Shown piece after piece: positions 32,660 to 34,170 of a stretch of DNA of 64,000 nucleotides. Within the stretch, counting starts at the first letter, position 1. Each line of letters starts with the position of its first letter. The stretch covers positions 352,001 to 416,000 of the forward strand of contig CP086569.2 of the NCBI GenBank assembly GCA_009914755.4, written 5' to 3'. A program made the position numbers and the translations under genes. This stretch comes from the human T2T-CHM13v2.0 reference genome, Homo sapiens. The notes under the pieces were generated by a model, which did no database searches, had not been told where the DNA came from, and saw only the letters and a list, made by a program, of their open reading frames with translations.

Positions 32660-33838
32660 TTTTAACTTTAAATTGGTATTCTTATTATTTGAGACGGAGT
32701 TTCCCTCTTGTCACCCAGGCTGGAGTGCAATGGCACAATGTTGGCTCGCTGCAACCTCTGCCTCCCTCATTCAAGCGATTCTCCTGTCTCAGCCTCCAGA
32801 AACTTTTAACTTTCAATTGATATTATTATTATTATTATTATTATTTGAGACAGAGTTTCACTCTTGTCACCCAGGCTGGTTGCAATGGCACAATTTTGAC
32901 TCATTGCAATGGCGTGATCTCGGCTCACTGCAACCTCCACCTCCCAGGTTCAAGAGATTCTCCTGCCTCAGCCTCCAGAAACTTTTAACTTTCAATTGAT
33001 ATTATTATTATTATTATTATTTGAGATGGAGTTTCAATCTTGTCGCCCAGGCTGGAGTGCAATGGCACAATGTTGGCTCGCTGCAACCTCTCCCTCCCTC
33101 ATTCAAGCGATTCTCCTGCCTCAGCCTCCAGAAACTTTTAACTTTCAATTGGTATTATTATTATTATTATTATTATTTGAGACGGAGTTTCACTCTTGTC
33201 ACTCAGGCTGGAGTGCAATGGCACAATGTTGGCTCGCTGCAACCTCTGCCTCCCTCATTCAAGCGATTCTCCTGCCTCAGCCTCCAGAAACTTTTAACTT
33301 TCAATTGGTATTATTATTATTATTATTATTATTATTATTTGAGACGGAGTTTCACTCTTGTCACCCAGGCTGGAGTGCAATGGCACAATGTTGACTCACT
33401 GCAACCTCTGCCTCCCTCATTCAAGCGATTCTCCTGCCTCAGCCTCCAGAAACTTTTAACTTTCAATTGGTATTATTATTATTATTATTATTATTATTAT
33501 TATTATTGTTATTTGAGACGGAGTTTCACTCTTGTCACTCAGGCTGGAGTGCAATGGCACAATGTTAGCTCGCTGCAACCTCTGCCTCCCTCATTCAAGC
33601 GATTCTCCTGCCTCAGCCTCCAGAAACTTTTAACTTTCAATTGGTATTATTATTATTATTATTATTATTATTATTATTATTATTTGAGATGGAGTTTCAC
33701 TCTTGTCACCCAGGCTGGAGTGCAATGGCACAATGTTGGCTCACTGCAACCTCTGCCTCCCAGGATCAAGAGATTCTCCTGCCTCAGCCTCCAGAGCCTT
33801 TTAACTTTCAATTGGCATTATTATTATTATTATTATTT
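32660..33838. repeat. Alu-derived tandem array: 7 truncated copies of a ~155-176-bp unit (flank ttttaactttcaattggtatt + (ATT)n + first ~110 bp of a minus-strand Alu)
   Basis: Alu-fragment starts at 32691, 32847, 33023, 33178, 33341, 33515 and 33686; each reads gagacggagtttcactcttgtcacccaggctggagtgcaatggcacaatgttggctcgctgcaacctctgcctccctcattcaagcgattctcctgcctcagcctccagaaacttttaactttcaattggtatt(att)n. Confidence 0.9.
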
Positions 33839-34170
33839 GAGATGGAGTTTCACTCTTGTCACCCAGGCTGGAGTGCAACGGTGCGATCTCGGCTCACTGC
33901 AACCTCCACCTCCCAGGTTCAAGCGATTCTCCTGCCTCAGCTTCCCGAGTAGCTGAGACTACAGACGCCCGCCACCATGCCCGGCTAATTTTTATTATTT
34001 AGTATTTTTATTTTTTAGTATTCTTAGTATTTTTATTATTCAGTATTTTTAGTAGAGCCGGGGTTTCACCACATTGGCAAGGCTGGTCTCGAACTCCTGA
34101 CCTCCGGTGATCCACCCACCTCGGCCTCCCAAAATGCTGGGATTACAGGCGTGAGCCGCCATGCCCGGCC
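33839..34170 (-). mobile_element. Full Alu SINE terminating the array (minus strand, with T/A-rich internal insertions)
   Basis: gagatggagtttcactcttgtcacccaggctggagtgcaacggtgcgatctcggctcactgcaacctccacctcccaggttcaagcgattc ... ggcgtgagccgccatgcccggcc, then gaaattggtatt (target-site-duplication copy of the array flank). Confidence 0.9.

What the first reader, a model, noticed from the sequence alone, without database searches (positions are those of the whole stretch)
32660..34170. An Alu insertion junction amplified into an 8-copy tandem array, with (ATT)n length varying copy to copy
The unit is pre-insertion flank (ttttaactttcaattggtatt), then the ex-poly-T tail now evolved into (ATT)5-14, then the first ~110 bp of a minus-strand Alu up to cagcctcc. 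The array ends in one complete Alu followed by the target-site-duplication copy gaaattggtatt. So a single Alu insertion site became the seed of a 155-176-bp satellite-like array. Copy 2 carries an additional internal partial duplication. This is a clear example of minisatellite birth from a SINE junction, with a microsatellite nested in each unit.
Basis: seen in the sequence. Interest (0 to 1): 0.6.

Follow-up and report, generated by a model that had tools for sequence, protein, structure and literature searches.

The report
Alu-junction minisatellite, eight tandem units
One old Alu insertion had its tail end, its A-tail (now an ATT microsatellite) and about 20 bases of neighbouring DNA copied head-to-tail into eight units; this is a clean, rather large example of the well-known class of Alu-derived minisatellites, not a new kind of element.

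Summary
A 22-nt flank motif occurs eight times at 32659-33819, against 0 expected by chance. Each copy is followed by (ATT)n and the same 108 nt of a minus-strand AluS 3' end (consensus positions about 174-282). Only the eighth unit runs on into a complete Alu (33838-34170), which is closed by a target-site duplication: AAATTGGTATT at 32670-32680 and 34172-34182.

Units are 144, 179, 153, 156, 162, 174 and 171 bp, that is 132 + 3n, with an extra 23 nt in unit 2.

Refinements:
- The repeated flank reaches 11 nt beyond the target-site duplication.
- The empty site already carried (ATT)2.
- No direct repeat of 5 nt or more marks the unit borders.
- Central units are nearly identical and edge units are more diverged.
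- Most differences between the two unit types sit in one 39-nt patch (P about 0.002), which suggests a conversion tract or a mutation cluster.

The window is dense in tandem repeats and holds three more Alu-derived tandem duplications. Alu-derived minisatellites, including partial Alus next to a full Alu, have already been catalogued genome-wide. No orthologue or other allele could be reached with these tools. Verdict: a new member of a known kind, of low interest.

The parts
32659..32802 (-). Unit 1 (144 bp). It consists of the original flank CTTTTAACTTTAAATTGGT, then ATT CTT ATT ATT, then 108 nt of Alu 3' end (32690-32797, patch in A-state), then the joint AGAAA. Its flank has A at 32670, as in the right-hand target-site copy; units 2-8 have C there.
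32670..32680 (.). Left copy of the target-site duplication, AAATTGGTATT. It can be extended to 32686 at 15/17 identity with the right copy.
   Evidence: (sequence print)
32803..32981 (-). Unit 2 (179 bp). Flank variant ..TTGAT, (ATT)8, and an Alu part carrying an internal duplication (+23 nt), with the patch in B-state.
32880..32927 (-). Internal duplication in unit 2: two 24-nt copies that differ at 6/24 positions. They are TTGCAATGGCACAATTTTGACTCA (A-like, closest to unit 5) and TTGCAATGGCGTGATCTCGGCTCA (B-like, closest to unit 8).
32982..33134 (-). Unit 3 (153 bp): flank variant ..TTGAT, (ATT)7, patch in A-state.
33135..33290 (-). Unit 4 (156 bp): (ATT)8, patch in A-state. Outside the microsatellite it differs from unit 6 at a single base, which lies in the patch.
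33291..33452 (-). Unit 5 (162 bp): (ATT)10, patch in A-state.
33453..33626 (-). Unit 6 (174 bp): (ATT)12 GTT ATT, patch in A-state.
33627..33797 (-). Unit 7 (171 bp): (ATT)13, hybrid patch (A-state on the left, B-state AGG on the right), and the variant joint AGAGC.
33798..33837 (-). Flank (..TTGGC) and (ATT)7 of unit 8, directly abutting the complete Alu.
33838..34170 (-). Complete AluS element (333 bp) with the patch in B-state. Both monomers hit the Rfam family Metazoa_SRP on the minus strand (57.9 and 40.7 bits).
33988..34054 (-). The middle A-rich linker of the complete Alu, expanded by about 49 nt into its own small tandem repeat (periods 9, 16 and 25).
34172..34182 (.). Right copy of the target-site duplication, AAATTGGTATT (extendable to 34188). 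The adjacent TTTTTAAAAA at 34184-34193 fits the L1 endonuclease TTTT/AA target.
   Evidence: the L1 endonuclease site preference is established knowledge

Best explanation
This is a mutational by-product, not a functional device.

Step 1 (shown). An AluS element was inserted by L1-type target-primed reverse transcription at a TTTTT/AAAAA site, on the minus strand, creating an 11-17-nt target-site duplication.

Step 2 (inferred). Well after insertion, a segment of about 140 bp was duplicated once in tandem. The segment comprises the last 108-112 nt of the Alu (from ...GGAGGCTGAGG, consensus position about 174, to the 3' end), the A-tail and about 19-24 nt of downstream flank, 11 nt of it beyond the target-site duplication. 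The new joint has only 2-3 nt of in-register microhomology (Alu CGAGT versus flank TGATT). That points to end-joining or template-switch replication slippage rather than exchange between good direct repeats.

Step 3 (inferred from the unit pattern). Once two 140-bp repeats existed, unequal sister-chromatid or homologue exchange, replication slippage and gene conversion expanded and partly homogenised the array to eight units. This produced near-identical central units, more diverged edge units and mosaic units (2 and 7).

Step 4 (shown as an outcome). The tail-derived triplet run, possibly seeded by (ATT)2 already present in the target, slips independently in each unit. It gives 7-14 repeats even between units whose Alu parts differ by 0-1 base.
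For: - Eight copies of a 22-nt non-Alu flank in register, against 0 expected by chance.
- The Alu breakpoint and the type of joint are the same in all seven truncated units.
- The Alu part maps to consensus positions 174-288 on the minus strand in every unit.
- Only unit 8 continues into a full dimeric Alu, with 7SL hits for both monomers.
- A perfect 11-nt target-site duplication frames the whole array, and unit 1 shares the A variant with the right-hand copy.
- Outside a 39-nt patch, units differ by 0-7 of 88 sites (mean 4.9%). Units 4, 5 and 6 differ by 0-1, and edge units are the most diverged.
- Units 2 and 7 are mosaics of the two patch states.
- Microsatellite length varies from 7 to 14 repeats while unit bodies stay nearly the same.
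- The mechanism matches published models for Alu-derived minisatellites (PMC3389668; PMC6947457).
- The same window shows the process elsewhere: three more Alu tandem duplications and many VNTRs.
Against: - No clear 5-20-nt direct repeat flanks the unit, so the classical Haber-Louis initiation is not demonstrated (sequence).
- The 5-nt joint (AGAAA or AGAGC) matches neither parent exactly.
- A-state and B-state units differ by 11-13 of 39 sites in one patch, which simple in-situ divergence does not explain.
- No orthologue, second allele or read-level data could be obtained, so the order and dates of the steps, and any copy-number polymorphism, are untested.
Confidence: 0.9

Rival explanations
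1. The first duplication arose during the retrotransposition event itself, for example an aborted or template-switched reverse transcription or repair of the L1-endonuclease nick. Only the later expansion was by unequal exchange.
For: Ahmed and Liang suggest that initiation of TE-derived tandem repeats may be linked to the retrotransposition process and to L1-endonuclease nick sites, and they list 136 partial-Alu-next-to-full-Alu repeats. The unit spans exactly the priming junction (tail plus target site).
Against: All units share two CpG decays relative to the consensus and are about 95% alike outside the patch, while the Alu is about 9% from its consensus. That suggests duplication well after insertion, unless homogenisation erased older differences. 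The repeated flank extends 11 nt beyond the target-site duplication, which TPRT alone does not produce.
Confidence: 0.05
2. The array is one copy of a dispersed composite repeat (a multi-locus tandem repeat or part of a segmental duplication). It was built elsewhere and moved here.
For: Multi-locus TE-derived tandem repeats exist. The genome outside this window could not be searched.
Against: The array is framed by a matching target-site duplication whose left copy runs on into unique flank. Unit 1 keeps the ancestral A variant seen in the right-hand copy. The flank motif occurs nowhere else in the 64 kb.
Confidence: 0.03
3. The copy number or the unit structure is an assembly artefact, i.e. 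an expansion or collapse of a shorter or longer real array.
For: Tandem arrays with near-identical units (units 4-6) are error-prone in assemblies, and no reads are available.
Against: Units are individually distinguishable by substitutions, flank variants, microsatellite lengths and the unit-2 duplication, and they are ordered coherently.
Confidence: 0.03
4. Eight independent Alu insertions into the same or similar target sites, seven of them later truncated.
For: Over the full 108-nt Alu segment, unit 8 is no closer to A-state units (85-87%) than to some unrelated Alus in the window.
Against: The truncation point, the joint and the 22-nt flank are the same in all units. That low similarity comes from one 39-nt patch; outside it, unit 8 differs from the central units at only 3-4 of 88 sites. 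There are no separate target-site duplications.
Confidence: 0.005

Closest known systems
Alu-derived minisatellites (Jurka & Gentles 2006, Gene 365:21, cited from reviews; Ahmed & Liang 2012, PMC3389668)
   Same: A tandem array whose unit is mostly a fragment of one Alu, formed in situ and expanded by slippage or unequal exchange. It fits the sub-pattern 'partial Alu repeated next to a full-length Alu' (136 cases). The Alu breakpoint at about position 174 abuts the AluS region 176-206, which is reported to be covered by tandem repeats more often than other regions. It also lies at the GCCTCCCG/CGGGAGGC motif listed as an Alu minisatellite source.
   Different: Eight units, whereas AluS-derived repeats average 2.3 and only about 8% exceed 3. 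The unit crosses the element border to include the tail microsatellite and 19-24 nt of non-Alu flank. The partial copies are of the Alu 3' end, not the 5'-end case discussed by Ahmed and Liang. No 5-20-nt flanking direct repeat was found.
A-rich microsatellites born from Alu poly(A) tails (Arcot et al. 1995, cited via PMC9659126 and PMC6947457)
   Same: (AAT)n/(ATT)n sits exactly where the Alu 3' A-tail meets the target site, and it varies in length.
   Different: Here the microsatellite is itself replicated eight times as part of a larger unit. The target site already contained (ATT)2, so the tail may not be the only seed.
Composite repeat arrays of T2T-CHM13 (Hoyt et al., bioRxiv 10.1101/2021.07.12.451456)
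   Same: The repeating unit is assembled from different sequence types (TE fragment, simple repeat, other DNA) and arrayed in tandem.
   Different: Those composites are defined by three or more repeated sequences per unit and are far larger. This unit is 132 bp + 3n, with one TE fragment, one simple repeat and unique flank.
VNTR region of SVA retrotransposons
   Same: Antisense Alu-like sequence adjacent to a variable tandem array in primate genomes (own knowledge; SVA composition is described).
   Different: This locus has no CCCTCT hexamer, no SINE-R part and no sign of mobility, and the array is fixed at one insertion site.

Membership tests
Alu SINE insertion (L1-mediated) | Dimeric 7SL-derived body of about 280-300 bp with a middle A-rich linker | tested here: met
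Both monomers hit Rfam Metazoa_SRP on the minus strand at 57.9 and 40.7 bits, below the gathering score of 70, as expected for Alu.
Alu SINE insertion (L1-mediated) | 3' A-rich tail followed by a target-site duplication that also precedes the 5' end | tested here: met
   The tail position is occupied by (AAT)n in Alu sense. AAATTGGTATT at 32670-32680 equals 34172-34182, and the match is 15/17 if extended.
Alu SINE insertion (L1-mediated) | Insertion at an L1 endonuclease TTTT/AA-type site | tested here: met
   TTTTTAAAAA at 34184-34193 lies at the edge of the extended duplication. The site preference itself is established knowledge, not tested here.
TE-derived (Alu-derived) minisatellite | Head-to-tail array of two or more units, each longer than a microsatellite unit, with the unit similar to a TE consensus or overlapping a TE by at least one period | tested here: met
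   TRF finds period 153-171 and 6.4-7.8 copies. 108 of the 132 non-microsatellite bases per unit align to Alu positions 174-288.
TE-derived (Alu-derived) minisatellite | At least 95% identity among units (the selection criterion of Ahmed & Liang's catalogue) | tested here: not met
   TRF gives 83-93% matches over the array. Only the central units 4-6 are 97-99% alike in the Alu part. This is a catalogue filter, not a biological definition.
TE-derived (Alu-derived) minisatellite | Initiation between short (5-20 nt) direct repeats flanking the unit (Haber-Louis / Jurka-Gentles model) | tested here: not met
   Left border ATCTCTGATTC versus Alu CCTCCCGAGTA share only GAnT in register plus a pyrimidine run. 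According, only about 6% of TE-derived repeats are explained by this model or by slipped-strand mispairing (159 and 300 of 7,276).
VNTR (copy-number polymorphic minisatellite) | Different unit numbers among individuals | not testable with these tools
   No second allele was found: 0 hits in six DNA scans, no exact ORF on record and no flank-bearing peptide among the 120 best protein hits.
Composite repeat (Hoyt et al.) | Unit made of three or more repeated sequence types arrayed in tandem | tested here: not met
   The unit holds one Alu fragment, one simple repeat and unique flank. The definition was read.

The most novel reading that the evidence does not exclude
The single non-homologous joint and the 39-nt patch, which carries about 10 clustered substitutions and then spread to five units, may be footprints of one error-prone, replication-based repair event (template switching or break-induced replication) at an Alu/target junction. 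The locus would then be a natural record of how a retrotransposon border seeds a minisatellite. The eight independently slipping (ATT)n tracts would give a second, faster clock on the same units.
Probability: 0.07. Interest if true: 0.4.

Novelty: new member of a known kind. Interest (0 to 1): 0.2.

Why it matters
The locus is a tidy teaching example. All stages can be read from one sequence: insertion, target-site duplication, a non-homologous first duplication, expansion with central homogenisation, mosaic units and a nested microsatellite. With near-identical central units of 132 bp + 3n, it is likely to vary in copy number and could serve as a marker. It adds nothing conceptually beyond the published genome-wide catalogues of Alu-derived minisatellites. 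Its practical relevance is for repeat annotation, because a unit that crosses a TE border is split by RepeatMasker-style annotation into Alu fragments, simple repeat and 'unique' DNA. It is also relevant to gene callers, because a 311-codon chance ORF runs through it.

Tried and rejected
1. Exact-pattern scans found nothing. The joint, the flank plus microsatellite, and the left and right unique flanks were searched in metagenome contigs, genome contigs and viral contigs, all with 0 hits. These collections evidently hold no primate copy of the locus.

2. Chance ORFs were used as handles to fetch other assemblies. The 200-aa ORF (32397-32999) and the 311-aa ORF (33021-33956) are not on record.

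3. A protein search with the 311-aa ORF returned 2557 Alu-derived peptides (GVQW1-like, mostly New World monkey annotations). None of the best 120 carries the flank-derived peptide (LTFNW etc.), so no allele or orthologue was found.

4. A PRDM9-type hotspot motif as driver was rejected. CCNCCNTNNCCNC has 6 matches in the window (3.4 expected) and none in the array.

5. An early-split dating was withdrawn. I first read the 14-17/108 A-B differences as an ancient first duplication. The differences are concentrated in one 39-nt patch, so that dating is invalid.

6. A donor for the patch was sought among the other roughly 55 Alus of the window and none was found.

7. Gene context was not resolved. 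Stop-free segments outside repeats were listed, but nothing looked exon-like beyond L1 ORF2 debris.

8. Jurka & Gentles 2006 is not held in the library. It is cited only through papers that describe it.

Full report
**Observation**

The 22-nt motif CTTTTAACTTTCAATTGGTATT occurs eight times with at most one mismatch, at 32659, 32803, 32982, 33135, 33291, 33453, 33627 and 33798. It occurs nowhere else in the 64 kb on either strand, and 100 dinucleotide-preserving shuffles gave no matches. TRF calls the array at 32677-33945 with periods 153, 156 and 171, 6.4-7.8 copies, and scores up to 1540.

Splitting at the flank gives units of 144, 179, 153, 156, 162, 174 and 171 bp, followed by a last unit that runs to 34170. 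Each unit has four parts:
- a 19-nt flank;
- a triplet run: ATT CTT ATT ATT in unit 1, then 8, 7, 8, 10, 14 (12 pure), 13 and 7 ATT-type triplets;
- 108 nt of Alu;
- a 5-nt joint, AGAAA six times and AGAGC once.

The invariant part is therefore 132 bp. Unit 2 has 23 extra bases.

**Identity of the Alu**

Positions 33833-34170 align end to end.

A global alignment of 33838-34170 gives 90.8% identity to AluSx, 89.0% to AluY and 84.4% to AluJo, with a 49-nt insertion in the middle A-rich linker.

Independently of my memory, Rfam's Metazoa_SRP model hits both monomers on the minus strand: 34053-34169 at 57.9 bits and 33837-33985 at 40.7 bits. Both are below the gathering score of 70, as expected for a 7SL-derived SINE.

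The window as a whole is 27% Alu, so it comes from a primate. The AluS/AluY-type content implies a catarrhine, presumably human.

**One insertion frames the array**

AAATTGGTATT at 32670-32680, inside the first flank, is repeated exactly at 34172-34182, one base after the Alu 5' end. Extending both copies gives 15/17 identity.

In Alu sense the right-hand site reads TTTTT|AAAAATAATACCAATTT-C-GGCCGGG. That is an L1-endonuclease-type TTTT/AA target followed by the duplication; the site preference is established knowledge.

Two refinements follow:
- The unoccupied target already contained (ATT)2 in register with today's microsatellite (GGT ATT ATT TTT). The (ATT)n run may have grown from tail plus target, not from the tail alone.
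- The repeated flank includes 11 nt (CTTTTAACTTT) that lie beyond the duplication. The repeat unit is therefore a genuine genomic segment spanning the junction, not a product of exchange between the target-site copies.

Unit 1 has A at 32670, like the right-hand target-site copy. Units 2-8 share C there. So unit 1 carries the ancestral flank, and the other seven flanks descend from one mutated copy.

**The first joint**

The Alu part ends at ...CTCAGCCTCC, where the element would continue CGAGTAGCTG. The flank to the left of unit 1 reads ...ATCTCTGATT before CTTTTAAC.

The joint next to the full Alu (CCTCC AGAGC CTTTT) matches Alu CGAG at three of four bases. The other joints read AGAAA.

In register, the two parents share only GAnT plus a pyrimidine run. 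There is no direct repeat of 5 nt or more of the kind required by the Haber-Louis / Jurka-Gentles initiation model (PMC6947457). I therefore infer a non-homologous or microhomology-mediated first duplication.

Ahmed and Liang found that the established models (slipped-strand mispairing and flanking direct repeats) explain initiation of only about 6% of TE-derived tandem repeats, so this is not unusual.

The Alu breakpoint falls at the GCCTCCCG/CGGGAGGC motif, which is listed as a source of Alu minisatellites. It also abuts the AluS region 176-206, which is reported to be spanned by more tandem repeats than other regions.

**Relationships among the units**

Over the 108-nt Alu part there are two types:
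- type A: units 1, 3, 4, 5 and 6, which differ from each other at 1-6 sites;
- type B: unit 8 and the 3' half of unit 2, which differ at 8 sites.

A and B differ at 14-17 sites, and unit 7 is a hybrid.

Taken at face value, unit 8 is no closer to type A (85-87%) than to unrelated Alus in the window. That would threaten the single-origin model and suggested to me a very old first duplication. That reading is wrong.

Twelve of the 14 A-B differences lie in one 39-nt patch, positions 41-79 of the Alu part. Permutation gives P about 0.002, even with CpG sites weighted eightfold. Outside the patch, and including the flank, all eight units differ at only 0-7 of 88 sites, mean 4.9%. Units 4 and 6 are identical there and unit 5 differs by one. 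Unit 8 differs from the central units at 3-4 sites, the same as unit 1.

The picture is typical of a tandem array evolving by unequal exchange and conversion: homogeneous centre, diverged edges and mosaic units.
- Unit 7 has the A-state up to position 70 of the Alu part and the B-state at positions 77-79.
- Unit 2 has two 24-nt copies, one A-like and one B-like, differing at 6 of 24 positions.

The A-state of the patch is 9-10/39 from the consensus, against 3-4/39 for the B-state. A is therefore probably the derived state. It could come from an ectopic conversion tract from a decayed Alu or from a local mutation cluster, and it then spread to five units. No donor exists among the other Alus of this window. 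This patch is the one feature I cannot explain.

Because of it, and because conversion erases history, I give no dates. What can be said is that the units are much more alike (about 95%) than independent Alus of this age would be. They also share two CpG decays, so the amplification probably postdates the insertion by a good margin.

**Nested microsatellite**

Units 4 and 6 differ at one base outside the triplet run, yet carry 8 and 14 triplets. Slippage in the triplet run is therefore much faster than substitution, and it acts independently in each unit.

Because 132 is a multiple of three and the microsatellite is a triplet, the reading frame is preserved from unit 3 to unit 8. A 311-codon chance ORF results at 33021-33956. 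Its homologues are the usual Alu-derived pseudo-proteins, GVQW1-like.

**Context**

The window is exceptionally rich in tandem arrays:
- 44 bp x 63 copies at 9159-11932;
- 67 bp x 91 copies at 23087-29110;
- 29 bp x 53 copies at 55364-56892;
- (ATCC) x 470 copies at 49852-51723.

It also contains three more Alu-based tandem duplications:
- three full Alus, each with the same AAGATTTC flank, at 43242-44199;
- a 189-bp internal Alu segment present three times at 54113-54770, joined at CAGG;
- a 32-bp internal duplication between the two GCCTCC repeats of the neighbouring Alu at 34514-34588.

The finding is thus one of several products of a locally high rate of tandem duplication.

**Comparison with known work**

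Alu-derived minisatellites are a described class. Ahmed and Liang report 7,276 TE-derived minisatellites. Their catalogue includes 136 with a partial Alu next to a full Alu. AluS-derived arrays average 2.3 units, and only about 8% exceed three units (PMC3389668). A review counts 2,663 of these minisatellites as Alu-associated (PMC9659126).

Alu tails as microsatellite sources are equally classical (Arcot et al. 1995, cited). T2T 'composite' arrays are a larger-scale analogue.

This array is larger than most, and its unit crosses the element border, but it is the same kind of thing.

**What could not be done**

No orthologue, second allele or read data could be reached. Dating, lineage specificity and copy-number polymorphism therefore remain open. 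The locus, the gene context and the species were not identified.

**Verdict**

This is a new member of a known kind. Interest is 0.2.

Noticed in passing
window 43242-44199: Three full-length minus-strand Alus in tandem (period about 317, 86% matches). Each is preceded by the same short flank AAGATTTC plus a T-run, and AGATTTT follows the last one. This looks like an Alu with its target-site duplication triplicated (TSD-Alu-TSD-Alu-TSD-Alu-TSD), a second border-crossing Alu array in the same window.
   Followed up: partly
window 54113-54770: One minus-strand Alu in which an internal segment of about 189 bp (consensus positions about 64-258) is present three times. The joints are at CCTGAYCTCAGG|CTGGAGTGCAG, i.e. 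at a short CAGG repeat inside the Alu, which is the classical short-direct-repeat type of Alu minisatellite.
   Followed up: partly
window 34514-34588: The neighbouring Alu (34444-34764) carries a 32-bp internal tandem duplication (2.3 copies) bounded by the two GCCTCC(C) repeats of the Alu right arm.
   Followed up: no
window 33988-34054: Inside the complete Alu of the finding, the middle A-rich linker has expanded by about 49 nt into its own tandem repeat (TATTTTTAG-like, periods 9, 16 and 25). This is a third level of repetition within the same element.
   Followed up: partly
window 33219-33257 (unit 4) vs 33879-33917 (unit 8), and the same positions in other units: A 39-nt patch exists in two sharply different states (11-13 differences), while the rest of the units are about 95-100% alike. 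The clustering has P about 0.002. Either a conversion tract from an unknown donor or a mutation cluster could produce it, and the cause is unexplained.
   Followed up: partly
window 33021-33956 (+): A 311-codon stop-free ORF runs through units 3-8, because every unit is 132 + 3n bp long. It is a chance product of the Alu-antisense open frame, but gene callers would report it. Its database relatives are Alu-derived 'GVQW1'-type pseudo-proteins.
   Followed up: yes
window 9159-11932; 23087-29110; 55364-56892; 49852-51723; 2401-3565; 42971-43202: The density of large minisatellite and microsatellite arrays is very high: 44 bp x 63, 67 bp x 91 (6 kb), 29 bp x 53, (ATCC) x 470, an AT-rich array with 80/396-bp periods, and 46 bp x 5. 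Alus plus tandem arrays cover about 55% of the window. This suggests a VNTR-rich region, possibly subtelomeric, but its location was not identified.
   Followed up: no
window 32437-32512 (+): A short ATG-initiated open frame ends at a good splice-donor-like site (ACGCAG|GTGAGA), 150 bp upstream of the array. It may be an exon or may be chance, and it was not tested.
   Followed up: no
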